Assembly: GCA_973895155.1 (NCBI GenBank)
Contig: OZ316892.1
Location: forward strand, 23,693,971-23,757,970
Length of the DNA: 64,000 nt
Direction of reading: 5' to 3'
Source: Marsupella aquatica
Taxonomy: Eukaryota; Plantae; Marchantiophyta
Under the pieces are notes generated by a model. The model had not been told where the DNA came from, ran no database searches, and saw only the letters and a list, made by a program, of their open reading frames with translations. Numbering within the stretch: the first letter of the stretch is position 1; every line of letters begins with the position of its first letter. Below are positions 3,301-62,347 of this stretch, piece by piece. Both the position numbers and the translations under genes were made by a program.

Positions 3301-5638
3301 ATGATATCACGAACGCGCATCGGCTTGGACAGGGTACTCCCAGCCTAGAAAAGTTGAAATCTTTTGAAGTCTGTGGGACTGGCATGTATCCAAATTAGGT
3401 GGATCATACAATTTGATTCAGGAATGACAGGGAGACTTCTTAAATCTACTTAAGGTTAGCGATCATCTGTAAAAGTGCGACCTACAATGCTGTACTGTAT
3501 GCCTCTTAAATACCCCCCATTACAGGTAGGCCACAGAGTGTAGCACGCGTGAGAATGACTAGGGACCCTTGCGAGAAGAATGTGACAATAGCACTCAAAA
3601 GTATCGTGGATTGAAGACGTTCATAAACTCTTTCGTTCTGTGCTCGACATTGTGCATTTTCCTGCACTTTACCCACAGCGTCAATGGGAAGCCATCACGG
3701 TAAATAACAACAAATCCCCTCCCCCGCCATTGGAGAGTTTTCTTCACCTACAGGATAAGAGGAGTCGCACCCTCCTGTTATCTTCACCTATCGTTGATGA
3801 GTGCGGTCCATGAACGAAAGAATCAAGCTACAGAAGCCTATGAATCATGCAAAAGTTGATGGTCGTGTCGCTAGAGTAATCTAAAGCTAGAGATCCCGGC
3901 TTCACTTTTACATCTTATCTGAAACACTTGGAGATGAGAATTTGAGCTCTAGTGGATGATAACTACAAATGACACCCAGCTGTGTTTGATTGCGATGGTA
4001 CAGGTCGCCCAATGATTGACACCAGTAGGAGGAAACTCAACTTAAGCCAACAGACTTAGGAAAATAAAATTTGTAGCCCCTACGCAGTATGACTCAAGTT
4101 TTGCTGAAAGGAACTTCCGGATTGTTATTGGAAGGTTAACCTTGAATTCATGAAAGGAAAGTAAGCATTCTTCTAAATTGAACTGTTGATCCTTGGTTGT
4201 TAAAATGGGGACCCACATAAATAACTTTAGAGGGACATACCTTGTGCCCGCAAAAGTTACAATCAGACTGGTGAATTTATCAATTGCATGGTGATAACTG
4301 TGTGGCGGTTGATCTAGAACACGCGCTAAATCTCGATAATAGATGGTGAGGCCTCCATGGAAGTAATAGCGCACACCAGGATTTACAAGAAACAAATATG
4401 AGAGAAGATAGGCTGACAATGGAATAAATCCTCGTTTCTACGAGGCTCTACTACTTCTACATTCGTGGGGAGTGCCGTCGAATAAGCCTGTCAGACAGGA
4501 TTCTAATTAAGACAAGATGGAGCCACATTGGATCTCTAGATGCACCAGCAAAAAAAAACGAAATGGACTAGTGGCCAAGGGTGTTCGTTGTTCTGGAGCA
4601 TAGAGCTAACCGGCTCAAGTAAATAACACCAGATGAGAAAAACCATGAATCAATTCTTGTTAAAGATACAAACCTCAGAACTAGTTTACACTCTCTAGGT
4701 AACTGCTCCACCCAGGTGAAGAATAATTAATATGCCTTCAACCGAACTCTGTTTCTCTGTCCTAAATAGGAGAAGGTTGAAATCGTGTCCAATGAATGAT
4801 GGTTCGACTAACACTGGGCTAATTCCCTATCTGGTACTGAATTATCATAGCTGCTAGCCTAAGAAGGGTTATCGAAAGGAAGAACCTCAGATCGAGAGTC
4901 TGAACCGGATATCCTTCATAATCGGACATTAGCTGTATGTATCGCAACTGCTAATTGTACATTTTACCAGCTTAGCTCAACGACTGACTAAATTCGGACC
5001 ATATGTACAAAGAATCAGGATCACGTCACTGCTGCTAAATGCCTGAGCTAGACATGTATGCACGTCTGCAGCCGAATCCAGAAAATAAGCAGGAAGTAGA
5101 CAGTGGTGCAATGGCACTGCTGGGAGTTGGTAAGAAATGTGACCTTCACATCCCAGCAGTATCACTGTGACCTCACCACTCCAGCTCCAGCTATATGCCT
5201 TTCTTGTCAACACACACAATCACACTTCCTCATCTTACAGGCCGATGCGGTCTCCCATCCAAGCAACAGAGAAGCTGCGGCAAGAACTCTCTGACCACCC
5301 ACTGTTACTCAACCTCCTACTACCACCACTACACCCGCAAGGTCTACCGAACTTGAGATGGACATACTTAAAATTCATGTATGACATCACTTTAGATTAG
5401 ACTTTCGTTGACCCATCTGGCCTTCAAAAGGACTAGATTGACACATAAGGACTATCTTTTGCCTTGGGGAAGACTTCCACATTGAATCTATGATCTGTTC
5501 ACCGTCATGCACACCCTCACCTCCAAGAGTGACAAGTAGTGTCTCCCCTCACCGCTCAAACCAGTTGTTGCAGAGCACACTTTCTCCCCATTACACTCAA
5601 TATGAATCATCCACATGTTACATCGTGGTTGCCTGTTA

Positions 5639-6682
5639 TTACACAGAATTATAGTCACAGCTCCACTTGTGTGCAATGCTCACGCAGCTGAGATAATGGC
5701 ACCAGTGGCATTTCTTCCGAGCATCAACGCCAGTGAAGAGGACGGCAGCGGCAGCCGCGTAGGCAACAACAACCAGAAATAATGCAACGACCCACATGAC
5801 CTTTTGCCCGCGGGTGTATTTCTTCTTCACGGGCATATCGTCATCTCTGTATCCAGCCGGCAGATTACCCAGATTCACCCACCCATACTGAGGTTTCACC
5901 AAAAGAACGAATCCCAGCAAGAATCCGGAAACGAAGCCACCAATATGAGCGAAGTTGTCCACATAAGGCATTAATCCAAATGCCAGATTGATGACAATGA
6001 CCACGATCAGTGTGGTGAGTGCTAAGCATCTGTTGGCGTAGATCGTCCAGTTGGTGAGCAGCTCGGACACAGTGGCACCTAGAAGACCAAACAATGCACC
6101 GGATGCCCCTACTGAGATCTGGTTTTCTGGAAGGAAGAGAGCAGACAGCAACGAACCGCCAAACCCGGCCAAAAGGTACACAATGCCAACTCTAATGAAG
6201 CCAAACTCCTGCTCTAGTCTGATGCCGATGAGGAGGAGGCCGAGCATGTTGGCTATCAAGTGAAACACCCCTGCGTGCAACCATATGCAAGAGACCAGAC
6301 GCCATGCTTCTCCATGGATCACCAGATAAGGTCGAAGGCCCCCCAATTTCTGCAGAGTCCTGGCAGATGGGCCGAGCATCGGGTTCTCGTTCCATGGCTC
6401 GAAGCCAAACCGTTTGAAGACGTGGGGCATGCACTTGCGTTTGGGCACCTCTTTGGGGCAGTTGTTGTAGTACATCACCACAATGAGCATTGCAATGTTG
6501 GATATCACAATTATGGGGATGAGGAACACAAATCTCCTCCGGTCTCTCTCGGTGGTAGGAACTGTGGCTGGTGGAGGTTGTGCCGGCCCAACCGGATATC
6601 CAAACCCTTTGTTGCTCAGAGTCCTCGCCCGGATGGATCCTGGGTTCTCCTCATCCGAATCATCATACCTTGCTGAGCCCAT
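5639..6682 (-). CDS. Rhomboid-like intramembrane serine protease (plant RBL1-7 type), single exon, 347 aa
   Basis: WR motif (GEAWRLVSCIWLHAGVFHLIANM), catalytic GASG Ser, catalytic His in AHIGG, plant RBL signatures ENPMLGPS and CHWCHYLSCV, and several hydrophobic helices. The ORF is uninterrupted from ATG to stop. Confidence 0.96.
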   Translation of the reverse strand: MGSARYDDSDEENPGSIRARTLSNKGFGYPVGPAQPPPATVPTTERDRRRFVFLIPIIVISNIAMLIVVMYYNNCPKEVPKRKCMPHVFKRFGFEPWNENPMLGPSARTLQKLGGLRPYLVIHGEAWRLVSCIWLHAGVFHLIANMLGLLLIGIRLEQEFGFIRVGIVYLLAGFGGSLLSALFLPENQISVGASGALFGLLGATVSELLTNWTIYANRCLALTTLIVVIVINLAFGLMPYVDNFAHIGGFVSGFLLGFVLLVKPQYGWVNLGNLPAGYRDDDMPVKKKYTRGQKVMWVVALFLVVVAYAAAAAVLFTGVDARKKCHWCHYLSCVSIAHKWSCDYNSV

Positions 6683-9600
6683 CGTCTGTCTTCTTCACCA
6701 CAATGCAAATACCTTTTGCAGCTCTTCCCGATTCACAACCGAGTCACTCCCCACTTCTCCAACAAATGCAAACTAGAGCCGCTCTCCTAAGCTTCCAAAG
6801 TCTCCAATGAGGCGAATCTGTCACAGCATTGCGACACCCCTGAGTTTCTCCGTCCGTCACACCCAAGGATTGGACAAATCTTTCCTATGGACACAGGGTA
6901 GGGGAACGAAAATGCCCCCAAACCGCCACAACTCCAATCCAATCAATGCGCTCCGATCATGAGCCAAATCGGACAGCTTCGTACAGGAACCCTGCCCCTC
7001 CGCCTAGCCAGACACACGACGACCAAGCATAGACACGCCAACTCGTTGGAAATCTTCACTCGTAGCTCTCTTAGGGTCAAGTCAATCCATCGCCGTCCCC
7101 CTTCCTCCCTCAAGCCGGCAGGGCAGTCAGACGCACTCCCTCTCCTCACAGACAGCGTGATAGCCCACGAGGACAATCAATGAGTTGTGCGTGTGTTACA
7201 TTACACGTTACGTTGAATGCAATGACTGCCCTGATGCGTTGAAACTCCTGTTCCTTCCCTTCCTTTCTTCCCTCCCCTTGACCCCTTCCCTAGTTCCCTT
7301 GCTGTGCATCGCCTTTTGACCAGCTTGGAAGGGGTACAGGACATACGACTTCAGAAGACTACAGGCAGCTGCTGTGGGGCCCCACTTTATTATTCATCGA
7401 AGAGAGCTCAGTCATCCTGTCATCAATCGGCTCTGAGCCTACTACCGGTACCGCTCCCTGTGCTGCTCCAAGATGGCAAGACCGGTGGTGGTGGCCCTCT
7501 CGCTGCCGAGTGCTCACTCTTTCACAGCTCAGCTGGGCTTATGATTCCCTGCTCAGGTGTTTCCCGTGTCCCGGAGAAGGGAAACAGTCAGACCCAAGCT
7601 CAAAAAAAGCTGGCGGACAAAAAAGCGTGCTCAGCTGATCTTCGCTGAGCCAATCTCTGCTGGTTAACTGGTGGAGGATCGATTGTGAGGCTCCAGAATG
7701 GGTGAGAGAGAGGAGCTGGACGACAGCCCAGCAGACCATTACCACACTCCACTGGTGCTCCACTGCTCGACCGACGATGGAGAGAAGACAGTGAGGACAG
7801 ATTATTGACGAGCGCAGCTCCAATAATGAATCAACGCTGGACGAGGAGGGCCTACAGACATCACTGATTGATGAGAGAAGTGAGCAACGAGCACCCCACT
7901 CACTCGCCCAGCTCGCCAAAAAGTTTCTGTCTCATCAATCCGGGCCAAAAAAGAGGCCCATGTCGATCAGAATCGATCGATTCTCTGCTCCCTGCCAGCA
8001 TGATTGTGCGGCTGTACTCGCAAATGGATCGACGTATTACTTTTCATGCGCTTTTTCACGCGGAGAAAGAGAGATTGCCGCAGGGCAAGAGTACAGAATG
8101 ATAATCAACGCGTTTAAACACATTTCTTTCTCCCGAAGAGAGTTCTTTCGTCGCGAAGCTTGCCTCTTTTTAGTAGTAGTCAATCCTCGCTTGCTTTCCG
8201 GGCAAACTATCTTCGGATGAAATCCGCGCTCGCGCTGTCGAGTTGTACTTTTCAAGTAACCGAGCTGCCCCAGTTTTATTTACTCCCTGCCCGCCCCAGT
8301 TTTATATTTACTCCGTAAGCAATTACCCCCTGCCCGAATGTTACGACGTCCAGTTTCGCCCTGCCCAGCCAACCATGATGATCCTTTTCGCCCTGCCCGA
8401 TCAATGATGACGTTTTTTTAGGCTCCACCAAACCAATCACGATTCCTTGTCAACTGCCCAATTTAGTGCCTTACTACTGTAGCTGAGTCAATTCCTTATT
8501 TTTATTTCTTTACCCCAAAGTGATATTCTTTCTTTTAGGCTTACATTAAATTATTTTGGTTTTTTTTCATTTATTTACTTCGTAACAAATGTATTGATTT
8601 CAATATAAATTGTTTTTTTTTCAATTCTTGAGCATAATTATAGAAAGTATGTCAAATGGTGCTTCTCAATAGGAAAGGCAACAACCAAGGTAATATATTA
8701 TGGTCATGGAAGTGAATGTTGAATTATGACGTTTTCTTTCATGACGATCCAATCATTATTTATTTCATGCATATGTAATCGACACAATCTCTACGTGATT
8801 CACCTCTTCTCCAAGGCTACGTCCACACAAACGCTCAAGTTTTACATCAAGGGTAAACGAACACACATGAGATGTATTATTAACATTTTGCTTTCAAGGT
8901 TTTATCATAAACTAACTAATGTATACTAGATTGATTCTTATTATAATTTTTGTGATAAAATTTGATGCTCCATAAATTGTCTTATTAAACCCCTAATTGA
9001 TCCCACATTATTTTCTTTATGTGAGAATATAATGTCTTTTTATACTTCAAATCTGTTTAGAAACTTCATAATGCAATTGAGGGTGTCAATATTCATGATT
9101 TTTCCTTGATCAAGCATGTTTTATCGGTATTACATGGATTTATGTATTGAATAACTTGATATATATCAGATATGCTAAAGACACTCCCTCGATCTATCTC
9201 TATAAAGCATTTTTCATGCAAAATGTGTGAATAGCATCTTTACCTAACTTGGCCTTGATTGGGTGTTATTCTTGACTACTTATATGATCTCTCTGGTCTA
9301 GTAAGGGTATGGCAAATCTTGGGCCGTATTAAGATTAGGAGTAAGTTTTTTTTATCAAAAACACGTGTACAAAACAACTAGTTATAAAATATATTATGAC
9401 AGTGATACATATATGTTATCTCCATTCCTACATAAGATATGTAGTGTATTAATATATATGGGGTATTTACAAACGACAGGAAATAGCAAACAATAACAGA
9501 AAATAGAAACTGGTAATAGGGAAATGAGCGATAATTTCTTTTGAATTTCTTTTGAATTATTTTTTTTGCCAAAAAAATTCTATTGCCAAAAATATTTTTT

Positions 9601-10639
9601 TGCTTGCGCCCGACGCTGGTAATGCTAGTGCTCAAAGCTAACCAAAAAATGTTGTCGGCAATTTTATTTTTGAAAAATGTGATTTTTTAGAAAATATTTT
9701 TACATTATCATTTTTCTGGTACCAATAAACCTGTTTCTTGTTTATTGTTTATTGTCACGCATATCATACCCGTATATACTAGATATACTCCTCATTTGAC
9801 TCCTACATACATGTAAGCAACCATGAACCCAAGTGTTAGTGTTGAAAATGATCTACAAGGGAGTGATTATAACCATGTTGCATCAAAGGTTAGAAATATG
9901 GTTTTCAATTGTGCATATACTTACCGACCCCAACTCGTCCTGCATGTGAAGTTTCAGAGCCCGCGTTCCAAATTTCTTAGCCAACTCTCTCTCAGGTGGC
10001 AAGATTGGGCGTCCATGCTCTCGCTCCTGCACCATACTCAAGATAATAATTAACCCCCCTCCCCGGCAAATGAGAATAAAATTGAAACCTCCCATTACTT
10101 GAAATACATTATTTTAAAAGTTAATCCCTACCAAATCCCCCACATTACTTAATGAATAATAATCCCTACCTAGCCTCACACATTACTTAGAAAAATTCCC
10201 TAACACCCCCACATCCCTTTCAACTCATGGGTATCACTACCCACTCTACCTATATAAAATACTCCCTTATTATCGTGGCCTAACTATCGCAAAAAGCAAC
10301 GACAACCTAAGCCCGGCACTCCTTAAAAAAAACAAACCCCCCGGCGTGGCCTAAAACAGTCAAATATTCAAAATTTTGAATTTTTCCGATGCTTCCCTAA
10401 TCGGACCCCTCCACCCTAAACCCCAAAACCTAAGGTCCGATGCAGGGTCCGATTCTCAGGTAATCGGACCATAATCGGAAGCCTTGCGTCCAAAACCCAT
10501 AAGAGAGAGTCCCACTCCATTTCCGACTCTTCAGCAATCGGAATAGAATCGGAAATAGAAAAAAATAAGGACACATCAAAACTTGCGATACAGGCTCGAT
10601 AACAAATGCACAGGGATAAGAGGGGAGGTCTGGGAGGAC

Positions 10640-11837
10640 TTATGCAGGCATAGCCAAGGTTGTGCCTGAGGTGATCAGGGAGAGGGAGGACCCAATTTCA
10701 AGGTGAAAATTCAGCAAGGAGGCAAGCAAGGAGGAGGGGAGCATAGGACTTACAAACTCTGCTTTGAGAGGATGCGCTCCACCCTGCCCCATTCGGTGAG
10801 TAACTGCAGGTCTCTTCTCCACCCTCTCAATTGCATTTTGAATGTAAAGTGGAGGGTCTCCAAGCAGTGCTAATTTGGCCTCCCATTCCATTAAGTTTTG
10901 CTGCAGGAGGGGGATGTCAACAGTCTGTCCTGAAAGGACCCTCTTCTCTGCCTCATCGAGCTCAGCCTGCCAGTGACGTCTCGCTTGCCAAGCACGAACC
11001 TGTAGCTCAGCATCAATCCAAGCAGACCAGGCATCAGCTGGTATCTCATCCGGGGGATCTCTCTGCCTGATCACCTCTGCCTCCTCCTTACAATCTGCCA
11101 GGTACTTCCTCATCTTTTCTCTCACATTATTACATCTATCTGCAAGTGAACGTGAGATCTTCTTATTCAGCCATCGATCATCCAGGAAGCAGCCATTACA
11201 GAATCGCTCCTTCACTTGCTCCCTTGCTTGAAATTTATCCTCTTCTTTCTTCTTCCCCCAGTAGTCTAAGGGGCTGAAATTTGCCCTCAACACCTGCCCT
11301 AGCTGACTTCTGAACAAATTGTAGCTCTTTGTCATCGGAGCTCCTCCCTTATTAATGAACAATTTTGGCCGTTTGGCCCTTTCCTCTGCTCGTAGCCTCT
11401 CTTCCTCAATCCTTGCCCTCTCTGCAGCTCGAGCCTCCTTTCTAAGCCTCTTCTCTCTTTCTTGTGGTGAGAGGGCCTCCACTGGCCTGCCTTTCCTCCT
11501 TCCTCTTTCTTTTTTTCTCCTTTCCTTTCTCTAGCCTCTCCATGAAAGCCTTCTCTGCTTCACTTATGGCAGATTGCCTGGATTCGTCAATCAGGCCCTG
11601 GGTCAATTGAGCTGCTATGGCCGCAGCTTCAGCAGACAGGCCTGCTTGCCTCTTGAAAATCTCTGCCATAATGTCCGAGATCTGCTGTGACGGCCCTGCT
11701 CCATCTCCACCCACCCTGGCTGCTCCGTCTCCTCCCCCCCCAGCCGTGCCATTCCCCTCCATAGCCTCGACCTCCAATGCGTGCTCCTCCACTTTGTGTT
11801 CACTCAGCAGCTCCTCCCAAGTTGCATCCGAAACCAA
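10640..11837 (-). pseudogene. TnpA-like (Ptta/En/Spm, Transposase_24-like) accessory protein of the CACTA element, one frameshift
   Basis: Two overlapping ORFs (11442-11837 and 10640-11482) are joined by a frameshift in an A/G-rich tract near 11490. Features include charged coiled coils, PPDEIPADAWSAW and VTHRMGQGG (resembling the H-x-x-G-x-x-G motif of TnpA-like proteins). A splice donor GTAAGT lies at about 10753. The family assignment is by motif resemblance only. Confidence 0.55.
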
Positions 11838-12815
11838 GCCCGATACAAAGACATTCGTACTTTAGTCGGGAAAAGTACCAAACCCTATTGTGCCCTCCAT
11901 CCGATTTTTTAAGAATCGGAACATCCGATACTTGAACTATCGAAAACGGGATCGGAAATAGCGATGCTTAAAGTATCGGACCCCTCTTCCAATATGATCG
12001 GACTTAGCTTGTCCATTATTTTTTATGCCTTTAAGGATGGATTTATAATAAGTTAGTCGATGGGGGGGGGCTGGGGATGTGGTAAGGAAATGTAAGTTTA
12101 GTTGATGTGAAAACCTGCATTGTAATTGTAGGCCTGGTTGAGTAGCCGGATTTTGTTTGGGCGGTGGGGTTCTTGAATAAAAGCCGGTTATAGGTGCGGT
12201 AACGTCCCCCTTACAACAACATACTTTTGGGGTTGAACGGTATGATCATTGACCCACTCACATTAAAAGTTTTGACAAATTTGTCCACCTTGTATGTGGA
12301 TTTAATTTTGGGGGCCAAACAAAGTTAACCTCATGTGCGTGTATTGTGCAGTATTTTTTTGCGGAGGGTTGGGTCGTTCTCTTTGTTTGTATTTTTGTAG
12401 GTCCATTTTTGCAATGCATTATGCATCGCGATAGGCCATGCATCCGAAAGGTATGATATACTCCCTTTATCATTTGGAGGTGAGCACTTTAAGTATATAT
12501 TTGGCTAAAGTTTTTTCATTGATGGCCACAATATATAGTGGATATGATTCTATGGGGACATATGTATAGATAAATTCTGATGGTATTCCTTTAATTGTGC
12601 AGACATTTCGGATATTGTCTTAGCATATATTCTAAGGCCAAGATCCTAGTAGGCATTGTTCAGTGCGGATATCATTTAGGTAAGATGCACAGTCATTATT
12701 TTTAATTATTCGCTTAGTGTAAACTAGGTTCCAATCTTGACATATTGTATTTAGGGTACTTAATATGAGTGGGAAAGATTTTTGACATGTGATTAATTTT
12801 CACATTGATGGGCAG

Positions 12816-13054
12816 ATGTCAAATTCTGGGAGTTCCGAGTCAGATTCTGACTCGGACTCGTCATCTTCTGAGGGGGACATTCCTCCCCCCCCCCCCCTCG
12901 GAGGCCGCATCATCCTCCTCCTCCTCTAGGCCCCATTCCATGTTGGTGTGTGCGATGTAAGGGAATGGTGGTTCGTCAAGCTTGGGAGTGTATTGAGCAT
13001 ATTGAGAATTATGGGCAACACCAACCTGATTTACCAGAACATTCAGCTCACCAG
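12816..13054 (+). CDS. First coding exon of the CACTA gene: acidic/Ser-rich leader plus transposase-associated Cys/His domain; frameshift in a C13 run
   Basis: ATG at 12816 reads MSNSGSSESDSDSDSSSSEGDIPPPP. Adding one C to the homopolymer continues RRPHHPPPPLGPIPCWCVRCKGMVVRQAWECIEHIENYGQHQPDLPEHSAHQ, which fits the CxCxxC...H...G pattern of the EnSpm transposase-associated domain. The exon ends at a phase-0 donor CAG|GTATGC (13054/13055). Confidence 0.7.
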
Positions 13055-13172
13055 GTATGCACCCCATACTCTCATCCCATACATTTCAATGAAGGAAACA
13101 TAATTTGCCACTTACAATCATGACCACTATCATCATATATTTATTAATTTTGGATTTTTTTTGAATGAATAG

Positions 13173-14132
13173 GTGCCCCGTAGGCCCCCTCCTCCATTGA
13201 TCTCTAAAGAGCTATGGCTAGACACATTCTTGGCTAGTGCAAGACGGATGCTTGCATCAACATCTACACCCCCTCCTCCTGCCCCGTGCCCCAATGGTGA
13301 GGGCGGGAGTGTACCTGTAGCAAGGGTGGAGGACATTGAGCAAGGTGACCTGGAGGTACCTCCATCTAGGGTTTTACGCACCGGCCCACGCTCCCATAGG
13401 CATAGGAGACATTATGAACCATTGGGCACTCGTGAGTCTCAAGACCCAAACTTGGTAGGTCCGCCTATGATGAAGCCAGGTGAGGGTTATGTGGTAGTGG
13501 AGGGTAGGTTGGGATTGTCATATCTCACTGGAAAGGCGTTGCCTCTTGTGAAGGACTTCTCGTCTGAGATATTCAAAATCCCTCAAGGCATACCCACTAA
13601 TGCCCCTATAGAGATATGGGGCCGTCATTGGATAGTGCAGTCATCTTCCCTTGGTGTTGATGTAGGATTTGGGTTATTTGCTTTGGAGGACATTGTGGTC
13701 CATCCAAAGCCATGGCGAAGAGGTTATGATGGGGAACACTTATTTCCTTATATTGGCCCTATATACACTGCCAAGAATTGGAACATTATTTTACGGCAAC
13801 AACCATCATGGGGAGTGTATGCATTGCAAATGGATTCCGATCCGGATGAGGTCCTCAAGAGGCCTTGGCATTGTAGGATGATTGATGGTGATCCTGTGCG
13901 ATGTGATAACATCGCTGGGTATATCAATAGTACCAAAGGGAGAGGACGAGGACTTCAATCAAATGTAGAGTGGGTTCAGATTTTTGGGGCACCGCCACCA
14001 CCTTACTATGTGAAGCATATGGATGACCATGTTATGACTGTAGCCATTAGGACTATTAGGGCTGGTGAGGAACTCTTTTGTGACTATGATTGGAACGCGC
14101 CTAAGATGGCCATACGGTGTCGTCCTTCATAG
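13173..14132 (+). CDS. SET-domain protein exon inside the CACTA element (putative lysine methyltransferase), 319 codons, intact
   Basis: SET motifs appear in order: VGFGLFALEDI (motif I), PYIGPIY (YxG), IDGDP..NIAGYINS...NVEW (motif III variant) and AIRTIRAGEELFCDYDW (motif IV). A T-rich acceptor ...GAATAG| at 13172 precedes it. Confidence 0.88.
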   Translation: MPRRPPPPLISKELWLDTFLASARRMLASTSTPPPPAPCPNGEGGSVPVARVEDIEQGDLEVPPSRVLRTGPRSHRHRRHYEPLGTRESQDPNLVGPPMMKPGEGYVVVEGRLGLSYLTGKALPLVKDFSSEIFKIPQGIPTNAPIEIWGRHWIVQSSSLGVDVGFGLFALEDIVVHPKPWRRGYDGEHLFPYIGPIYTAKNWNIILRQQPSWGVYALQMDSDPDEVLKRPWHCRMIDGDPVRCDNIAGYINSTKGRGRGLQSNVEWVQIFGAPPPPYYVKHMDDHVMTVAIRTIRAGEELFCDYDWNAPKMAIRCRPS

Positions 14133-14319
14133 CACATACAAACATGTGTATATGTTCACTTTTATAAAAATATTACTTGAGTCATTCTCTAATTGGTTTC
14201 AAGAGCTATGGAGTCTTTTGACTCATTCATATATGGATGTCTCAATTGTTGGTTGAGAGACCTGGACTTATATCATTCTCATTGTTTTCTTTTGTGTATG
14301 ATAGAATGCATTTGTTCAG

Positions 14320-17300
14320 CCAGATATTGAGGTATTATCACGAGCTGTGCGACAACATCTCCTTCAGGCCATGGATGGTAGGCAAGGGGGTCAACCTTTT
14401 GAGGATATGGACATTCCACATGAACTACCTAATGCTACCCAAGAAAGAGTGGATGAGGACCGGGCTATGGATGAGTTGATGCACCAATTCATGGATGCAG
14501 ATGAGGGTGATCCCCGGGGTGATCATGACCCAGGTGACTGGGAGGACATTGACTTACCTCCTCCTCATAGGCATACTCCTTCACGGAATTGACACTTGCA
14601 CCAGTGGGAGGAGGCTCAAGAGCATGCACGGACTCGTCTTTTTGAGGGGTCTAGATTATCTCGTCTTTCAGCAATCATGTTATTACTGAACTTGCAGCAA
14701 AGACATGGAGCAAGCAACTTGCTTCTTGATGATATTTTCAGGACATTGCATGATCGTATGTTACCAGAGGGGAATAACTTGCCAGCATCATGGAAAGAGG
14801 CAAAGAAAGTGTTGAAGTCCATAGGCCTCAAGTATGAGGTCATACATGCTTGTGTGAATGATTGTGTTTTGTTCAGGAAGGAGCACTCAAATGCTCTTAC
14901 ATGTCCTGTGTGCAATGCGCCAAGATATCGTGAGGATATGTTGACAGGAAGAGTACCTCAAAAGGTTATGAGGTACTTTCCCCTTATTCCTCATTTGCGT
15001 CACCAGTTTCGATGTGCAGAGTTGGCTAAGTATATGGTATGGCATTCCCAACACCGTTCAGACACTACTCAGGATCCAACCATGCGCATGATGGTTGACT
15101 CTCCTGCAAACAGATTTGTGGAAGAGCGTTGGGGTGAGTTCAAGACTGACCCTCGTCATGTTCGCCTTGGTTTGGCATCAGACGGCATTAGCCCATTTGC
15201 ACTGGCCGGCAAGGCCAAACCATACTCTGTATGGCCAGTAGTCCTCACTAACTACAACATCCCACCATGGATGGCCATGAAGGAGGGTCATTTGCTCCTA
15301 TCTATGATTATTCCTGGCCCTAAGCAAGTGAAGAAGATTGATGTATACTTGCAACCGTTGATTGAGGAGCTACAGAAACTTTGGGGGGGAGTGGATTGCT
15401 ATGATGGTCGAGTGCATACAGGGGGCTTACCCCGTGAGTTTCAGCTCAAAGCCATTCTTATGTGGACCATGCATGATCTTCCAGGTACCCAACTCTTTAT
15501 AAATTAAGTATGGCTTGTGCAGCTACCCATATATATATATATCGTTCTGTTTATTTTTTTTCCCTTTGGTTTGGTTTCAAAACTTAATGGGTTTTAATTT
15601 GTGACCATTGTTTGTGAAGGGTTTGGATATATTTCTGGCTTGCAAACTTCTGGATATCGTGCTTGCCCAACTTGTGGACCAGACTTGGAGGGAGTGGCAC
15701 GCCCAAAGTCTACCACCCTGCGGAAGATAGTTTACATTGGTCACACAAAGTATCTTCCTGAGGGGCATGACTGGAGGTATGATCCATTTTTGTATGACAC
15801 GGATGAGGGCCAGCCAGACACAAGACCTCAACCTTTACCGAAGGACCCAATATATTGGAAGGAGGTATGGGAGAGGGTGACTGATCCAGATGACCCATTA
15901 CCCTTGGGTAGATGTGGCATGACCCGTTTGTCTGCATTGGCACAACTTCCATATTGGGAACACATGCCGATAAATCATCTATTGGACCCTATGCATATTG
16001 AGGGGAATGTTGGGAGGTCATTGATCCGCCATCTATATGGAGAGAAAAACAACAATTGGAGGGAGAGTTGTGAGGAGATGGGGATGCATGGCCTTCATGG
16101 TTTTTGGCCATCTATGGACCCTGACCCTCCCCTTACTATCCATCCCCCATGGGTTTTCACAAGGAGTGAGCGAATAGAGTTTCGCAAGCGGATAGGGTCA
16201 ATGCGGTTTCCTACAGGGTATGGTGTCAATCTTCGCAAGGCATTTAGTGGAGATGACTCTCCAAAATGGCCAGCTTTCTTGAAGACCCACGATTATCATC
16301 GTCTATTGCAGCACGTTATTCCAGTTGCTATTATTGGATTGGGCAGCGAGGATCTTCGGGATGCACTTTGGTCATTGGGTAGATTGTTGAGATGGGTTTG
16401 TCAAAAGGAGGTCAACGAGGGAGAGATTGCTGCCATGGAGGTATTTGGAGTGGAGGTTGTGTGCAAGTTGGAGCGAGCACTCCCTCCTTCCTTCTTTGAT
16501 GGTCAAGTTCATTTTCTTGTACATCTAGTGCGTGAAGTAGCCATTGCAGGCCCAGTACATTGTCGTTGGATGTATTGGGTAGAGCGATTCATGGGAGTCA
16601 TGAAATCATATGTATCAAACCGTGCTAGGGTGGAAGGTAGCATTGCCGAACGTCACCTTGGAGCAGAGAGTATGTTCTATTGTACGAACATTGTGGCTAC
16701 ACTTGATCCAAATGCTCCAAGGGGTTGGATAGATGAGTCAGCACGAGAGGCAGATTATGAAGAGGATAGACTCACTGGAGCAAAGGGAGAACGACTACTA
16801 GGCTCTGCTGAACGTGTGCAACTCACCACATTCATGTTGTATAACTCACCAGAGATTGCAGGGGAGTGGACTGCATTTTATGAGGAGGAGAAAAGTAATA
16901 GTCGTCGGCCACGCCTCTTCCCCAAGTTTCTCCCATATATGAAGGAGAAGTTGACAGAGATTGATGCCTTGTTGGGTCAGGGTGAGAGTGTTTTGCACTT
17001 TCCGAAGGTCACCAATGACATTCGCACCCTTGTTCATGGTCCATTACTCATGGTCACGACTCGAACAGCCATGTGGTCAAAGGGGAGGCATTTTCGAATC
17101 CAACATCTTGATATGAAGAGAGCAGCAACACAAGATTGTGGGGTGATGGGGTGGTTCACCCAAGAGTCACAAAGTAGCACTTCTGACCGGAATCCAATAC
17201 GTTCAACTGTGGCCCACTATGGGAAGATAGAGGAGATTCTTATCGTAAATTATCATGCCCATACAACCTTGGAGGAGGTGGTGTTCAAGTGCAAATGGTT

Positions 17301-17574
17301 TCGGATGAATCTTGTTGGCCATAATCGGACCTGTGAAGAAGATGCATGTGGGTTCACACGATTGAAGACCAGTGCAACTAGTGTTATTAGTTCCAATTGG
17401 AGGACCTCAGATCCATTTGCATTTCCCCATTATTTGGAGCAATCTTTCTATCTTCCTTATCCGAATGACCCAGAGTGGTCCATTGTTATGCCTTACATCC
17501 CTCGCTCACGATCCATTGTTCAAGACAAGCCAAGTGTAGTTGTAGTAGAGGATTTGGACCCCTCATTACAATAG
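14320..17574 (+). pseudogene. EnSpm/CACTA TnpD-like transposase (Transposase_21, DUF4218, DUF4216), one in-frame stop at 14590-14592, intron 15485-15619
   Basis: Motifs IHACVNDCVLF..CPVCNAPRY, RLGLASDGISPF, YSVWPV..NYNIPPW, IDVYLQPLIEEL, HDLPG|FGYISG..ACPTC (across a GT..AG intron), DPMHIEGNV, KTHDYH, PPSFFD..HLV..GPVHCRWMYWVERFM and YGKIEEI..FKCKWF..DPFAFP. Confidence 0.96.
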
Positions 17575-18374
17575 ATGCGACCTAGGTAAAACCCCTATAT
17601 GTTTTATCTTCATGGATATCATATACATTTTGTCATGTCATTTCACACATGCCCAAAGATTCATTGGTTGGATATAATTTTGGATACAACTGTATATAGT
17701 CCCTTGACACAATCCAAATTGCAATCCCTAAGTAATATATGCATTTGAGTTACGTCCATTTATTCTCGATACCATTTCCCATGCTTAAAATAACGGAAGC
17801 CCATCGGAACACCTCCTTGTTCAAATCTTGACCTCGAACCACATATATCCGATATAAACCCTTTCGGACTCCATTTCCGATTCTTGTAGCATCGAACTTA
17901 TTTGTGATACACACTACTTCGGAAAACATTTCGGATACCCAACCTATCGGAAGCACTAAGCAATACATTTTCGATCGCAATATTTCCGTAATTTACTCAA
18001 TCGGACATCAAATGCGATACTTCAGGGATCGGAAATTTAGTAACAATTTTTAGAAGAGGGGTCCGATAGTCAAGACATCGGATATGTTCCGATATTAGGA
18101 GTATCGCAAATTATGTCCGATATTTTGGAAATCGGATACTGTGTTTCCGAAGCTGTGGGGATCGCAAGTTCCGATATTTTTGTGAACAAAAGTTTGCATA
18201 ACTCTGGCTATCGAACGCCTATTTCATGTTTCAGCGGGAGCATCGGAAAATGAGCAAAAATATACTAGTGAGTGTGCTCATTTTCACTTTATTTAGAGTA
18301 TCCCTTTGTACTTTCCAAGAGGGCATGGATCGATGTCTAGGCCCTTGGATCAAGTGCCTATAAGTATGCTAGTA

Positions 18375-18535
18375 CTATTCATAGTTGGTGAAACTATTAT
18401 GCGTACTTGGTGGAATTATTATGCGTAATTAGTGGAACTAGTATGTATAGTTGGTGAAACTATTATGCGTAATTGGTGAAACTACTATGCATAGTTGATG
18501 AAACTATTATGCATAATTGGTGAAACTACAATGTA
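18375..18535. repeat. Minisatellite of about 22-bp units (TTGGTGAAACTATTATGCGTAA-like) just outside the CACTA right end
   Basis: About 7 diverged copies of GGTGAAACTA(T/C)TATGC. Confidence 0.75.
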
Positions 18536-21509: not shown

Positions 21510-22728
21510 CCCCTTTAAAACCAAAACTTTGCCACTAAAAAAAATACGCCCTTACACACATTTGCCTCCACAATTCCAAATTGTATTAATCGGCAACATT
21601 TGTTGCTTCAGCAGAGAAAAAACTTTCCGTCGTGTCACACTCTCTCCATGTCAAGTGCCAATCCTGGACTCAAAATGACCATCTCACCGTGATCACTCTG
21701 TTGAGTCGTAACACTTTGCATTTCTCTCCCTCCCAAGCAAAGCGTGATGTCGAGAAACCCACTTAGCCAAGGTTATGTCTCCATAGCCATGAAAAAACCA
21801 GAAATATATTTTTTGCTTGTTGCGTTGCACTCGGTTCACCCTCGACAACAAAACAGATACCAAAATGACCAGTTTTGCCCAATCTACAATTTGGGCTATA
21901 GCATGCTATGACTCATGCAAAGTAAAGCTCACACTGTTGAGAAAACAATTTCAGGTCCTTTCTCCGTTGAAGAAACCGTCGAACACAAATCATTTTCACA
22001 AAAAATCCATAACAATAAAAACTTGAATTCCGCCACACCACAAACTCAAAATTAGTGATTTCTAAGCATCGTTAAAAAGCCCTTGCCCTGATCTATCCGA
22101 TGAGCCCAACACCTCCAAGTTCCATGCGACGAAACTCCTGAAATCTTCTGACACTAATCAACGAAAAAAACCATCATTAACACTTTACAAAAAAATCCTA
22201 TCGTCACTCCCAAGCTTGCTCTGATACCAATTGATGATCCAAATAGATAGCATGACGTCTCATAATCATCATTCATATAGCACTCAAATACATTGACACA
22301 AAGATACGTGGTTCACCCTGTTAGGGCTACATCCAAGGCCGCACCAAGAGCTTTACTATGAACATAAAAAGTACATATCACCATAGCTCCATGGTCCAAG
22401 CTTTCTCACTCTCACACAAAGTTCTACACTAAGTGTTCTATCTCCATGGGATACAAAGAGGGTTATCTCTTCATGAAGAGTCTAGTCAACTAATGCTAAC
22501 TCCGATTAACTTACTCTAGTTAACCTAACCAAGGTTAAGTCAAAACTCTAATAGTTCAGTTGTAGCAATATACTGATCCATAAATATGGAGAAAGCGGTT
22601 TCAATAGCATATTAGCATCGCTAGAACCGTTTGTGATACCCACAACTCTAATCACTAGAATTAATATTTTAATCCAAATCTATGAATTAGTAGATATCAT
22701 GCATGGGTTAACTTCATGAGAACCAACA
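21510..22728 (-). mobile_element. Truncated Copia 5' end (LTR about 22232-22728, PBS, leader), related to the Copia at 24667
   Basis: A minus-strand PBS TGGTATCAGAGC (tRNA-iMet) lies at 22218-22229. The reverse complement matches the 24667 element in the LTR (AACCACGTATC..TTTGTGTC) and in the leader (GGTCATTTTGAGTCCAGGATTGGCAC). The distal LTR end is uncertain. Confidence 0.75.
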
Positions 22729-22729
22729 T

Positions 22730-24666
22730 ACTCTTTTCACAAATTACGGTCACCCAAACAACATACTAGGATGCCATGGCTGTTGTACGCACATACGGCC
22801 CACGAGATCTCTTCATTATGTTAACTTGCAATCCAAAGTGGCCAAAGATCAAATTAAAGTAGAGTACCTTGAGGTTCAAAGTCCAACCAAGTGAGATGAA
22901 ATTATGGCACAATACTTCAAACTATAACTAAGAGCGTTGTTGGTAGAGGTTTGCCAAGGGGTCTTAGAAAGACCCATTGCCTCTATGTATGTCATAGAGT
23001 TCCAAAAACGTGGGTTGCTTCATGCCCACACATTGATCATTGTGGCAGAGCGGCACAAGATTTGAACCCTTGACGAGGTGGATGAGTTGGTTTGTGCCAA
23101 GATCCCTAATAGAGTAAAATATCCTTGACTTCATGAGACAATAACAAAGTCCATGGTCCATGTGACATAGGTTATCTAAACTTGCCATGCATGGAAGATG
23201 GGAAGTTCACTAAGCGTCATTCTTAGAGACACAATTTGAGGACGGAGGCCATCCTTTGTATCGGCGGCGAGACAATGGGCAGTCATTCACAAGGATAGGA
23301 ATGGATTTAGGTTTGACAATAGATGGGTTGTTCCCTATAGCCCATACTTGAACATGAAATATAATGCTCACATTAATGTGGAGATTTATTGTTCCATTAA
23401 GGTGATTAAGCATTTATACATGTATGTAAATAAGGGGCATGATCGGGCAACGGTGGAAGTTGGAAGTTGCGGGATGAAATCAAAATATATCTTCATGCAT
23501 GTTATATGTTTGCGGCGGAACGGACGTGGCAGATTTTCCAATTTAAAATGGCAGAGAGTAGTACTTATGTCCAACGTTTCCAAGTGCATTGTGAAAGGTA
23601 GCAGACAATAATGTTCAACAAAGATGTAGACATTGTAGACGTGGTTGAAAGGGAACCAAACAGGGATACCACTTTGACAGGATGGTTCAAGACAAACACA
23701 ATGTTTGAATTAGCACGCCATGTCACGTACATAAATTTTCCTCAAGAATGGACGTGGAACAAGGCGGTATGCAAATGGACTCTGCATCAACAGGGGTTTA
23801 GCATTGGGTGAATGTACTTTATGGCGCCATCGGCAGGGGAGAGATATTATTTGCAAGCCCTCTTGATTGTTGTCACTAGGGCTCATAATTTTGAAGATCT
23901 TTGTACTTTTGAGAATGTGGTGCATCCACCGTTCAAAGAGACTGTTCCCTCGCGCGTGGATTGTACAAGAATGATGTTGAGTGGGATAGGTGCCTTAGTG
24001 AGGCGGGCCTCATGCAGACCGGCTCACAACTTTGATGACTGTTCATAACAATCCTCATCTTTGGAAGTCCAACACAACCCTGTGATCTGTCGACAAGACA
24101 CTCTTCAAAGTTAAGTGACGATTGTTCTCATCGCCTTCTAAGCATTGGTATTCTTGAAGAAATCTCACATTTGTCACTTGCTTAGAAGGCGATGAGAACA
24201 ATGCTTAGAAGGTGATGAGAACATTTGTCATTGTGTAAAGACGTTCAAGCTAATGGAGAATATGCCTGCGCGCCATACACCCACGTCAATCGAGTTTGGG
24301 AACCAGACTTTCCAAGAATGGCTCCTTTAACTTGGGGATGATAAATTGCCAAAGCAAGGAGCGTCAAATAACATGATTATGGTCCTGCCATCCATTGTGG
24401 GGAACATTGTTGATACCGATTCCTTGATTCGTGCAATTTATACATTATTGGAGAATATTGATGACAAGTTCCTAAGCGAGAGAACAATATTGGCACCAAC
24501 AAATGAGGAGGCGTTGAAGATCAACAGTTTAATATTGGAAGGGCTTGTAGGAGATTGCACACCTTCTTAAGTATAGATCGCCCAAATCAATTGGAAAGAC
24601 ATGACTTTTACCCTACTGAGTTCTTGAATATGCTCACACCCAATAGTTTGCCTCCGCATAAGGTAG
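22730..24666 (+). mobile_element. Degenerate Helitron Rep-PIF1 helicase remnant
   Basis: Fragments across frames: DAMAVVRTYGPRDLFIMLTCNPKWP, YVIEFQKRGLLHAHTL (Rep HUH motif), DNRWVVPY, YNAHINVE..KHLYMYVNKGHDRA, TTLTGWF..N, GERYYL, ILAPTNE, YPTEFLN.LTP..LPPHK. There are many stops, and the helicase core is largely deleted. Confidence 0.92.
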
Positions 24667-25010: not shown

Positions 25011-26866
25011 ATTGGTATCAAAGCATGCCTCAGAGGTGACAAGGTTTTTTTGTGACGGTTTTCCAGCATTCATTGTTGGTGTTGCATTTGGAATTTTGTC
25101 GCATGAAACTCGAATGTGTGTGGCTGAGCGGATAGATTAGTGAGAGCTTTCTATTGGTGTATAAAACTCATTGGTTGGTATCCGTGGTGTGGAGGAATTG
25201 GAGTTTGCATTGATCTAGAGTTTTTCGTGTTTGACGGTATTTTTGGGGGAGACCAGAGTTTGTTTTTGCAATAGTGTGAGCTTTGCGGCGCACAAGGCGT
25301 TGCATGTTGTAGCTCAAGTTGAAGATTGAAGCAAGCTGGTCATTCTGGTAGCTGAGTTGCTGCCGAGTGGTTACCGAGTGCGTCGTGACAAGTGAAGGAG
25401 GCATTCAGATTTTTTCACAGGCTATGGAGCTTGTTCCCATTTGAACCGGGTTTCTCATTGTGACGTCCGACTTGGAGAAAGAAACGCAAAGTGCTACAAC
25501 TCAACAGTTTGATTGTGGCGAGGCGGTCATTTTGAGTCCAGGATTGGCACCTGACGTGAAGAGAGTGAGTCGCAACGGAAGCTTTCCTCTATTGTGCGTG
25601 CAGACGGCGCCGGTTCAATTTGACAACTTTTTCATGTCAGTGATTTTCACTTTCCTGAGTGAAAACGGCAAGAGGTAAGTAACTTGTCTTGTTTTTGGTT
25701 AAATTGGGCTTTTTTTAGGTCCCTTTAAGGTAATTTTTCCCGCCCCATACCCACTCAAAGTACCCCTGCAACTCCATCCACTACCTGGCACTCCCCACTC
25801 GCGGCCATTTTTGTAGCGTCGACCGGCGCAAAAATAGCATTTTGACCCACGGGCCGGCTTGCACAATACAGGGCTGCAAAGAAGCCGCCCAAGTTTCAAA
25901 AAAAAAATTGGGCCCTTCGTATTGACCTCCTGGCCGGCTACTCCCTCCGGCTGCCGGAAGGCTTGTACTTGCGAGGGTACTCGCGTACCCCCGACGCGGC
26001 CCTACCCCAACGCCCGACCTCCCTTCATACGCACCCCATATTTAGTTAAAGGGGCCTTTAGACCCCATTTAGGGCCAGATTCATTAATTCTTTTTCCGGC
26101 TCCTTATTGGTTGTCCCTTGTGTCGAGACCTGCCGCCCCCAACTTTAACCGGTTGGACAAGGGGAACGGCCCCCTGTGAGACCTGTCAGATTGTGCGGGA
26201 ATATTCCCAAAAAATAGAGAGCTATTTTTTTGCCGTCCGACAAAGATTTTGCGTGCCAAACGGTAACTTTTTTGGTTCTTTTTTGGCGAGGTCGTAGCCA
26301 TTGAAGTTAGCAACGCGGCGCATTGATCAAATTGCAATTCCAACGACGGGTTGTACTTGACATTTTGGTTATTCCCTGAGGTGGTAAAAATGGTGGAGTT
26401 TCCAAGGTTTTACCCACCCCGACCAAAATTTGTATAACGTTTCCGTCAAATTTTGATTTTGATTTTGTTTTGAGTGTTGGACTCCTAGCTTTGTGGGCTA
26501 CACGGCGGTGATTAGTTTTGAGTTTTTTGAGAAGTTGTGAAACACGTCATTTTTTTGTGATTTTCTCATATGAGTGATTGAGGAGATTTTCAAAGACGTG
26601 GAACTTGAAGCACGAGGATCACCGCGGCGGTTAGCTAGAGGAGGAGAGAGAGTAGTCGGAGGAAGAGCACATGACACCGGTACCATATATCACCGGTGCG
26701 GCGTGTGGTGGAGGAAGCTGTTCTACTACCGGAGCTCATGGTAGTGAAAAAAACGAAGATGGGGACGTTCAAGCTTGGCGGACCCAAGTATGAAGTGACA
26801 AAGTATGATGGGCGCTCTGACTACTTGCTCTGGGAGAAGCAGGTGAAGGGAGTGCTCTATGCTTCA

Positions 26867-37403: not shown

Positions 37404-37968
37404 CAACACAACATTTTTTTTCCCAACAACCTCTTGGCTGACACAACATCTTTTTCTCTCAACAACCTCTTGGCCAACATGACATCTTTTCTCTCAACAA
37501 CCTCTTTGCCGATATGACATCTTTACTCTGGATGACCTCTTGGCCGACACGACATCTTTTCTCTCCACGACCTGTTGGCCGACACGACATCTTTCTCTCC
37601 ATGAACTCTTGGTCGACACAACATCTTTTCTCTCAACGACCTCTTGGCCGATACGACATCTCTTTTTTACCATGACCGATTGGCCGACATGACTTCTTTT
37701 CTCTCCATAACCTCTTGCCGACACAACATCTTTTTTCTCCATGACCTGTTGGCCGACACGACTTCTTTTCTCTCCACGACCTCTTGGCCAACACAACATC
37801 TTTTCTCTCAACGAACTCTTGACTGTCACGACATCTTTACTCTTGACGACCTCTTGGCCGACACGACATCTCTTCTTTGCACAACCCCTTGGCCAAAACG
37901 ACATCTTTTCTCTCCATGATCTCTTGGCTGACACGATATCTTTTTTTCTCAACAACATCTTGGCCGAC
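37404..37968. repeat. Minisatellite, about 35-bp unit, about 16 copies (ACACGACATCTTTTCTCTCCACGACCTCTTGGCCG)
   Basis: Units start at about 37404, 37441, 37477, 37512, 37547 and so on to 37931. They are head-to-tail with no unique spacers. Confidence 0.95.
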
Positions 37969-38073
37969 AAGGCTTCTTTTGTCCAACGCATGGGTATTGA
38001 GCTAGTAAAACAATATAATATAGCCTGCTGCATGGTCCTAGATCTTTTCCCGGTATCCTAGGTGTGGAAATCC

Positions 38074-60592: not shown

Positions 60593-62347
<1,755 letters not shown>

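What the first reader, a model, noticed from the sequence alone, without database searches (positions are those of the whole stretch)
13173..14132. CACTA/EnSpm transposon carries an intact SET-domain (lysine methyltransferase-like) gene
Seen in sequence: a 319-codon open exon lies inside the CACTA element, co-oriented with the transposase. Its C-terminal half (about 13629-14093) has all four SET motifs in order: GFGLFA, YIGPIY, NIAGYINS..N and GEELFCDYDW, with the motif-IV Tyr retained. It has no pre-SET or post-SET Cys clusters and has NS where canonical SETs have NHS. It therefore looks like a compact, divergent SET rather than a fragment of a host SUVH, E(z) or ATX gene. This exon is uninterrupted, whereas the transposase, exon 1 and the TnpA-like ORF each carry a lesion. 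Established knowledge: CACTA elements canonically encode TnpD and TnpA, and some carry ULP1 proteases. TE-encoded anti-silencing factors exist (Spm TnpA, VANDAL VANC). SETMAR is a host SET-mariner fusion, and chlorovirus vSET is a minimal H3K27 methyltransferase. Inference: this may be a transposon family encoding its own chromatin writer, or a decoy, to modulate silencing. I am not aware of a described plant CACTA with a SET module but cannot verify novelty.
Basis: partly seen in the sequence, partly recalled or inferred. Interest (0 to 1): 0.92.

Follow-up and report, generated by a model that had tools for sequence, protein, structure and literature searches.

The report
Liverwort CACTA transposon's own SET exon
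A cut-and-paste jumping gene, likely from a liverwort, carries inside its transposase gene a conserved extra exon with the fold of a lysine-methylating (SET) enzyme, which is predicted to be spliced onto the transposase's first exon and would let the element mark chromatin for its own benefit.

Summary
Observation confirmed, reading refined. The 319-codon exon matches Pfam SET above cut-off and folds as a SET domain (pLDDT 92.9; Z 11-12). It is not a free-standing gene: it lies between exon 1 (Cys/His motif) and the transposase exon, and both acceptors are phase 0, so exon 1 can join either. The same layout holds in a metagenome CACTA family, and Calypogeia and Riccia gene models join the same parts. 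The SET core is under purifying selection (dN/dS about 0.3, linker 0.6-1.05) and has no close host relative. That this copy is unbroken proves nothing: dead copies lose SET and transposase at similar rates. Splicing, expression, activity and substrate are untested. SET-carrying transposons are known (oomycete HarbingerS, MuDR, Helentrons; red-algal Plavaka, a CACTA-superfamily lineage). I found no paper on a land-plant case or on this cassette layout. This scan noted the same system four times before, in peat moss. Verdict: new variant of a known kind.

The parts
13173..14132 (+). SET cassette exon (319 codons plus stop): short helix, Pro/Arg-rich linker (aa about 30-99), conserved core (aa about 100-308)
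   Evidence: acceptor TTGAATGAATAG|GTG, phase 0
13470..14096 (+). Folded core: family-specific N-terminal hairpin/helix module plus SET domain; motif I G165/G167, motif II Y193, motif III N252-S253, motif IV Y305
   Evidence: AF2 pLDDT 92.9, pTM 0.88; SET-fold matches; conservation counts
12816..13054 (+). Exon 1: Ser/acidic start, Pro run, C-x-C-x2-C...H motif (likely zinc finger); frameshifted at a 13-C run in this copy; predicted common first exon of SET protein and transposase
   Evidence: same motif upstream of SET in 10 loci and at the N-terminus of SET gene models; weak PF13963 match in one relative, E 0.031
13055..13172 (+). Predicted intron 1 (GT..AG, 118 nt) to the proximal, SET acceptor
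   Evidence: sequence; the C. fissa model P0001 joins the matching parts
14368..15484 (+). Transposase exon after the distal phase-0 acceptor; PF02992; premature TGA at 14590-14592 private to this copy
   Evidence: runs X1 and X2 read only C at 14590, X3 mostly C
15620..17574 (+). Last transposase exon (PF02992, PF13960, PF13952); with the previous exon it holds ASDG, HDLPG, CPTC, HLLDPMH and WVERF motifs
   Evidence: nearest named relative Calypogeia fissa, 83%
10643..11861 (-). Divergently oriented accessory ORF in two frames; charged, coiled-coil-like; possibly TnpA-like (lead only)
   Evidence: homologue at the same place and strand in 6 of 24 loci
11900..12002 (.). Internal cluster of TCCGAT/ATCGGA-type motifs between the two divergent genes
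   Evidence: a matching internal cluster at L007:8993-9032
10385..10589 (.). Left cluster of the same motifs (subterminal-like); no CACTA/CACTG terminus found beside it
17803..18270 (.). Right subterminal motif cluster and candidate right terminus (reverse complement begins CACTAGTA, last base 18270)

Best explanation
The exon encodes a SET-fold domain that is a conserved, selected part of a bryophyte CACTA lineage, and it is likely spliced to the transposase's first exon to give a zinc-finger-SET protein that likely methylates histone lysine on the element's own chromatin to counter silencing. Shown: fold, position, splice geometry, conservation, purifying selection. Inferred: exon 1 joined to the proximal acceptor gives a protein of about 399 aa that stops before the transposase exon; joined to the distal acceptor it gives the transposase of about 1100 aa; the ratio is set by splice choice. 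Inferred, weaker: the shared Cys/His module takes both products to the same place, the domain binds SAM and is active, the small residue at the Phe/Tyr-switch position allows di- or trimethylation, and the substrate is a histone tail.
For: Fold: pLDDT 92.9; 40 chains at Z 8 or more, the listed top rows all SET/PR folds, best Z 11-12. Layout: transposase downstream in 12 of the 13 loci with over 600 nt of downstream DNA, exon 1 upstream in 10 of the 11 with over 450 nt upstream (22 of the 24 loci are one family). Phase-0 donor and two phase-0 acceptors in the window and in that family. Exon-1 motif at the N-terminus of 8 of 118 proteins at E under 0.1, plus one more by pattern, from several branches of the tree, among them Calypogeia and Riccia models; one Riccia model runs SET into the transposase. 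dN/dS of the core 0.30-0.34 (bootstrap 0.19-0.51) against 0.64-1.05 for the linker of the same exon. Catalytic-site residues kept across proteins 25-70% identical to the query: G167 54/54, N252 49/54, Y305 49/54, Y or F at 193 in 53/54. The best sequence-profile match in the PDB, LegAS4 (E 1e-4), also lacks the NHS His and methylates H3K14 (bioRxiv 10.64898/2026.05.29.728679). Transposon-made anti-silencing factors and alternative splicing of Spm products are established.
Against: No RNA evidence: no listed run is on record as RNA and no contig joins the predicted splice sites; the Calypogeia and Riccia models are annotations of unknown support. No activity or substrate data. The fold search cannot pick a class: Set1, EZH2, SET8, SET7/9 and LegAS4 are tied within 1 Z unit at 16-30% identity. 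The NHS His is absent, and most members end 2-18 residues after the motif IV Tyr, with no post-SET module, which could mean a dead or altered active site. A profile of the exon-1 motif did not detect the N-termini of angiosperm transposases, so its identity as the transposase-associated zinc finger rests on pattern and one weak Pfam hit; DNA binding by it is not shown. The three dN/dS comparisons share one branch.
Confidence: 0.45

Rival explanations
1. Active methyltransferase with a non-histone target: the SET product methylates the element's own transposase or accessory protein, or a host silencing factor, and so tunes transposition.
For: Shared first exon would place it in the same complex as the transposase (inference). 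SET8- and SET7/9-type folds are among the tied best matches, and SET7/9 has many non-histone targets (recalled). No histone-reader domain is present.
Against: No interaction or substrate data. Most of the top structural matches are histone enzymes.
Confidence: 0.2
2. Catalytically dead SET that binds histone tails or Polycomb/SUVH partners and works as a reader or decoy.
For: His of NHS replaced in 54 of 54 aligned sequences; very short C-terminal tail; motif II Tyr is Phe in 13 of 54.
Against: GxG, the motif III Asn and the motif IV Tyr are all kept across very diverged members, which is what SAM binding and catalysis would require (established SET chemistry, recalled); an active enzyme without the His exists.
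Confidence: 0.15
3. Self-restraint: the enzyme writes a repressive mark (H3K27 or H3K9 methyl) on its own family or on competing elements or host defence genes.
For: EZH2 is tied for best structural match and is the best, non-significant single-sequence PDB hit (E 0.38). Many liverwort TEs carry H3K27me3 (bioRxiv 10.1101/2022.10.24.513474, passages).
Against: The match to EZH2 is no better than to Set1, which writes an active mark. The family looks recently multiplied, with many contigs 99% or more alike.
Confidence: 0.13
4. Passive cargo: a captured host SET fragment carried along without function.
For: Within one family of decaying copies dN/dS is 0.78 and stops are about as frequent as in the transposase.
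Against: That decay is post-insertion and hits the transposase too (0.63). Between subfamilies the core is under purifying selection; 84 cluster representatives at 50% identity reach E 0.001 and none of the 20 looked up carries a host SET name or extra chromatin domain; position and splice phase are conserved across lineages 40-45% identical.
Confidence: 0.04

Closest known systems
Plavaka accessory gene PAG2 of florideophyte red algae (EnSpm/CACTA superfamily); bioRxiv 10.1101/2025.02.11.637652, section 8 and passages read
   Same: A SET domain (PF00856) kept for a long time inside a CACTA-superfamily element, proposed to modulate chromatin; untested biochemically.
   Different: PAG2 is a separate gene that fuses a DNA adenine methylase to SET within a three-gene cassette of 17-19 kb elements of the Plavaka lineage. 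Here the element is a plant-type Tnp2 CACTA of about 8 kb, SET is a cassette exon after the transposase's first exon, and there is no DNA methylase. Homology of the two SETs was not tested (no PAG2 sequence at hand).
HarbingerS and MuDR families of Phytophthora with SET genes (Kojima and Jurka, Repbase Reports 2014, seen only as cited in PMC12730594); Phytophthora proto-Helentron SET (PMC4067079, passages)
   Same: DNA transposons that carry their own SET gene.
   Different: Other superfamilies and an oomycete host. The Helentron SET resembles Clr4 (E 3e-24 to the SET model), whereas this one is remote from every solved SET (17-30% identity).
Maize En/Spm and Arabidopsis EN/SPM3: TnpA and TnpD by alternative splicing; TnpA as anti-silencing factor (PMC13547354 and bioRxiv 10.64898/2026.08.24.746577, passages)
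   Same: One CACTA transcription unit yields the transposase and a second, regulatory product.
   Different: The second product here is a predicted enzyme, not a DNA-binding TnpA; the candidate TnpA-like gene is separate and divergent, not head-to-tail. Neither paper contains the term 'SET domain'.
LegAS4/RomA SET domain; human SET8; Set1/COMPASS; EZH2 (structural neighbours)
   Same: SET fold; LegAS4 shares the motif III pattern without His and an aliphatic residue two before the motif IV Tyr.
   Different: Only 16-30% identical; no ankyrin, pre-SET or post-SET modules; extra N-terminal hairpin/helix module and insertions specific to this family. No ancestry is shown.

Membership tests
CACTA/EnSpm DNA transposon | Tnp2-type DDE transposase with C(2)C and H(3-4)H motifs | tested here: met
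   PF02992 E 3e-40, PF13960, PF13952; motifs located
CACTA/EnSpm DNA transposon | Terminal inverted repeats starting CACTA/CACTG at both ends | tested here: inconclusive
   Candidate right end at 18270; no matching left end in the window. The related family has a shared CACTA left end with unrelated flanks at L007:6286 and L009:6332
CACTA/EnSpm DNA transposon | 3-bp target site duplication | not testable with these tools
   No copy with both ends; no genome held
CACTA/EnSpm DNA transposon | Subterminal clusters of a short motif in both orientations | tested here: met
   Clusters at 10385-10589 and 17803-18247; only 2 such sites in the rest of 7001-10384
CACTA/EnSpm DNA transposon | TnpA-type accessory gene | tested here: inconclusive
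   No Pfam hit; Atlas lead 0.82 to a PF03004 cluster
SET domain (PF00856) | Profile match above cut-off and SET fold | tested here: met
SET domain (PF00856) | Motif I GxG, motif II Tyr, motif III Asn, motif IV Tyr | tested here: met
   50 and 54, 40 (plus 13 Phe), 49 and 49 of 54 sequences
SET domain (PF00856) | His of the NHS motif | tested here: not met
   Ser 52, Asn 2, His 0 of 54; also absent in the active LegAS4
SET lysine methyltransferase (enzyme) | SAM binding and methyl transfer to lysine | not testable with these tools
   needs a bench assay
Host SUVH / E(z) / ATX / ASH1 classes | Class-specific flanking domains (SRA, pre-SET, CXC, PHD, post-SET) and high similarity to class members | tested here: not met
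   SET is the only Pfam hit; best PDB sequence hit E 0.38; none of 56 relatives scanned carries such a domain
Plavaka PAG2 | Separate gene fusing an N6-adenine DNA methylase with SET | tested here: not met
   No methylase domain in the exon or its relatives; no longer relative found among 560-2000 aa candidates, a weak test
HarbingerS | Harbinger transposase | tested here: not met
   The neighbouring transposase is Tnp2/CACTA

The most novel reading that the evidence does not exclude
An old bryophyte CACTA lineage makes its own histone methyltransferase by splicing a SET cassette onto the transposase's zinc finger, and uses it to write a protective mark on its own copies: a transposon-encoded chromatin writer in land plants, from a SET family with no close host counterpart.
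Probability: 0.35. Interest if true: 0.9.

Novelty: new variant of a known kind. Interest (0 to 1): 0.72.

Why it matters
The plant anti-silencing factors described so far (VANC, TnpA) bind DNA and lead to loss of methylation. A transposon that carries its own lysine methyltransferase would write marks directly. SET-bearing transposons have been catalogued in oomycetes and red algae, but the passages I read report no functional test. This family is compact, multi-copy, apparently young in the host, and present in annotated liverwort genomes close to the model Marchantia, so the question of what a transposon-borne SET does becomes testable. It also means some 'SET domain-containing proteins' in liverwort annotations (at least three Riccia sorocarpa models) are transposon parts and would inflate counts of host chromatin genes.

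Tried and rejected
No whole genome is held, so copy number, both ends and the target site duplication could not be determined. No RNA holder listed; contigs of 4 of the 6 listed runs, laid on 12930-15500, showed no joint at the predicted splice sites; neither is evidence on expression. The 13-C run and the divergent ORF were not covered by laid reads, so whether those two lesions are private or assembly errors is open. Viral origin: no relative in viral contigs with alignment A1 or with the distant member P0087; viral fold matches are generic (TM 0.4-0.5, 13-21% identity); the Atlas lists giant-virus and haptophyte SET clusters at 0.95-0.96, a lead only. Bacterial origin: none in genome contigs; NCBIfam gives only E 0.001 of P0087 to AnkI/LegAS4, far under cut-off. 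A three-way zinc finger-SET-transposase fusion: rejected as the normal product, because the stop follows the motif IV Tyr by 3 codons in the metagenome family and no longer relative was found; Riccia model P0065 is more likely a merged gene call. Pfam Transpos_assoc on exon 1: no hit for the window, L001 or L007. The first structure model (12 sequences, pLDDT 60.9) was superseded. One search used a wrong frame for one transposase and its correlation is discarded in favour. The tree has no outgroup of host SETs and an open backbone, so it shows no origin or donor. No complex prediction was run.

Full report
Observation. The window holds an open frame of 319 codons at 13173-14132 (+) between a short upstream exon and two transposase frames. 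Pfam gives it one hit, SET PF00856, E 9.3e-7, 29.7 bits against a cut-off of 22.4; the downstream frames hit PF02992, PF13960 and PF13952. With a 54-sequence alignment the core (aa 100-310) folds at pLDDT 92.9, pTM 0.88. Foldseek ranks SET8, LegAS4, NSD1 and MLL1 first. The wide structural search of 48,161 chains gives 40 at Z 8 or more, led by Set1 (12.0), EZH2 (12.0), SET8 (11.5), SET7/9 (11.3) and LegAS4 (11.0), rmsd 2.4-3.0 over 124-136 residues. The domain is a SET, and the structure does not say which class.

Gene anatomy. Exon 1 runs from ATG 12816 to a GT donor after 13054 and encodes a C-x-C-x2-C...H motif; in this copy it is out of frame at a run of 13 C. Two acceptors follow, both phase 0: one before 13173 (SET exon) and one before 14368 (transposase exon). 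The transposase continues through a second intron (15485-15619) to 17574 with its DDE-type motifs in place and one premature stop at 14590. Exon 1 plus the SET exon would give about 399 aa, exon 1 plus the transposase exons about 1100 aa. A divergent minus-strand ORF lies at 10643-11861. Clusters of a TCCGAT/ATCGGA-type motif lie left of it, between the two genes and before a candidate CACTA-type right end at 18270; the left end was not found.

Relatives. The nearest named SET relative (72% over the searched region) and transposase relative (83%) are both from Calypogeia fissa, so the host is likely a leafy liverwort (inference). The C. fissa model P0001 starts with the tail of the exon-1 motif and continues into the SET exon at the junction predicted here. 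A search of 1.84 billion representatives found 84 at E 0.001 or better. Of 20 looked up, 6 are Riccia sorocarpa models, 2 are C. fissa models and 12 are unnamed. A profile of exon 1 hits 8 of the 118 proteins then held at E under 0.1, and one more carries the pattern; P0065 continues into a Tnp2 transposase, and P0092 and P0066 into its start. These sit on separate branches of the SET tree. The genomic context of the most distant members (P0057, P0080, P0084, P0087, P0091, P0098 and kin) is unknown, so not every family member is shown to lie in a CACTA.

Genomic layout elsewhere. A metagenome scan returned 24 loci. Twenty-two are copies of one family, 91-96% alike in DNA and about 40% identical to the window's SET; L001 is a sister subfamily; L022 is short and uninformative. 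The transposase follows SET in 12 of 13 loci with over 600 nt downstream, exon 1 precedes it in 10 of 11 with over 450 nt upstream, and the divergent ORF is seen in 6. L007 and L009 share a CACTA left end with unrelated flanks, which places the cassette inside a mobile element. The donor and both acceptors are again phase 0. This family's SET exon is 801 nt, the length given in the scan's earlier peat-moss notes; I did not verify the host.

Selection. Between L001 and three copies of the large family the SET core has dN/dS 0.30-0.34 (bootstrap 0.19-0.51), the linker of the same exon 0.64-1.05; window against L001 or L007 gives 0.24-0.30 near saturation (Nei-Gojobori; the comparisons share branches). 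Among decaying copies within the family the values are 0.78 for SET and 0.63 for the transposase, with 0.40 and 0.51 stops per 100 aa. So the exon is selected in active lineages and decays in dead copies like the rest. Contigs of runs X1, X2, X3 and X5 cover the region with many variants 85-100% alike; X1 and X2 read only C at 14590 and X3 mostly C, so the transposase stop is private to this copy; one X1 contig spans the SET end and the transposase start with that single difference. Of the 19 listed differences inside the SET exon (40 of 218 rows were shown), 11 are silent, 8 missense and none a stop; one of them suggests that Ser263 here is a private change from Pro. Pairwise identities of SET and transposase across six putative elements correlate modestly (Pearson 0.77, 9 of 720 permutations; Spearman 0.60, 43 of 720); four of the pairs rest on equal contig length or shared chromosome.

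Active site. In 54 aligned sequences G165 is kept in 50, G167 in 54, position 193 is Tyr in 40 and Phe in 13, N252 is kept in 49, the NHS His position is Ser in 52 and never His, and Y305 is kept in 49 (3 of the other 5 are cut short). Two residues before Y305, the position I recall as the Phe/Tyr switch, the commonest states are Cys, Ala, Val, Ile and Thr (46 of 54). Most members end 2-18 residues after the Tyr. The family profile's best PDB match is LegAS4, E 1e-4, whose motif III also lacks the His and which methylates H3K14 (bioRxiv 10.64898/2026.05.29.728679, abstract start and passages). The missing His is therefore no proof of a dead enzyme, but activity is not shown.

Mechanism. Most likely (0.45) the element makes two proteins from one first exon, and the zinc finger-SET product methylates histone lysine on cognate copies in a way that favours their expression. 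Rivals are a non-histone target (0.2), an inactive reader or decoy (0.15), a repressive self-limiting mark (0.13) and passive cargo (0.04). That the exon is a functional, selected part of the element I put above 0.9; that it is an active methyltransferase at about 0.75; the substrate is open.

Prior knowledge. SET genes are reported in HarbingerS and MuDR families of Phytophthora (cited in PMC12730594, passages; the Repbase Reports themselves were not seen), in Phytophthora Helentrons (PMC4067079, passages) and in PAG2 of red-algal Plavaka elements of the EnSpm/CACTA superfamily (bioRxiv 10.1101/2025.02.11.637652, section 8 and passages; its supplements, which list PAG carriers, were not seen and may bear on range). 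Alternative splicing of Spm products is known (passages). Nine searches for a land-plant CACTA with SET (listings and abstract starts) returned no such report; the main texts of the Riccia sorocarpa (PMC11735767) and Apopellia (PMC12885004) genome papers hold no 'CACTA', 'EnSpm' or 'SET domain', and passages of PMC11982613 do not mention it. Repbase and subscription journals were not searchable, so an existing Repbase entry is not excluded. The scan itself noted this system four times in peat moss; those are unchecked notes and are not counted as support.

Verdict. Real feature; new variant of a known kind (transposon-borne SET), new in its host group and in its cassette-exon layout as far as my searches reach. 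Interest 0.72.

Noticed in passing
window 5639-6694 (-): Uninterrupted 351-codon rhomboid protease frame (PF01694, E 7e-42), the host gene left of the element; no introns in the frame, possibly a retrocopy.
   Followed up: no
window 18376-18533: Seven copies of a 22-bp tandem repeat about 100 bp beyond the candidate right end of the element.
   Followed up: no
window 30391-33674 (-): Decayed LTR retroelement pieces (RT, RNase H) followed by a 459-codon frame with no Pfam hit.
   Followed up: partly
window 35050-36821 (+): Copia-type gag, protease and integrase-region frames, broken by stops and a frameshift.
   Followed up: partly
window 21625-22138 and 25090-25580: Diverged inverted pair, 69% alike over 521 nt; may be the ends of an old element around a helitron-like remnant at 23240-23611 (resemblance recalled; no Pfam hit).
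   Followed up: no
window 28237-29020 and 37406-37988: Tandem arrays of 161 bp (4.9 copies) and 35 bp (16.7 copies).
   Followed up: no
window 51193-51957 (+) and 60923-62247 (+): Host exons: GLTSCR1/BICRA-domain protein and actin.
   Followed up: no
proteins P0080/P0107 and P0091/P0116 (Calypogeia fissa): Distant members of the same SET family with other Cys-rich N-termini and two copies each; they may sit in other elements or be domesticated genes.
   Followed up: no
protein P0032 (Logan, 423 aa): One continuous frame holding the exon-1 motif and SET; a spliced transcript or an intron-less copy, source type unknown.
   Followed up: no
L006:1-127 and 5317-5443, L017:2190-2317, L016:2583-2696: A shared short repeat of about 127 nt, apparently another small mobile element inserted into or beside copies of the family.
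   Followed up: no
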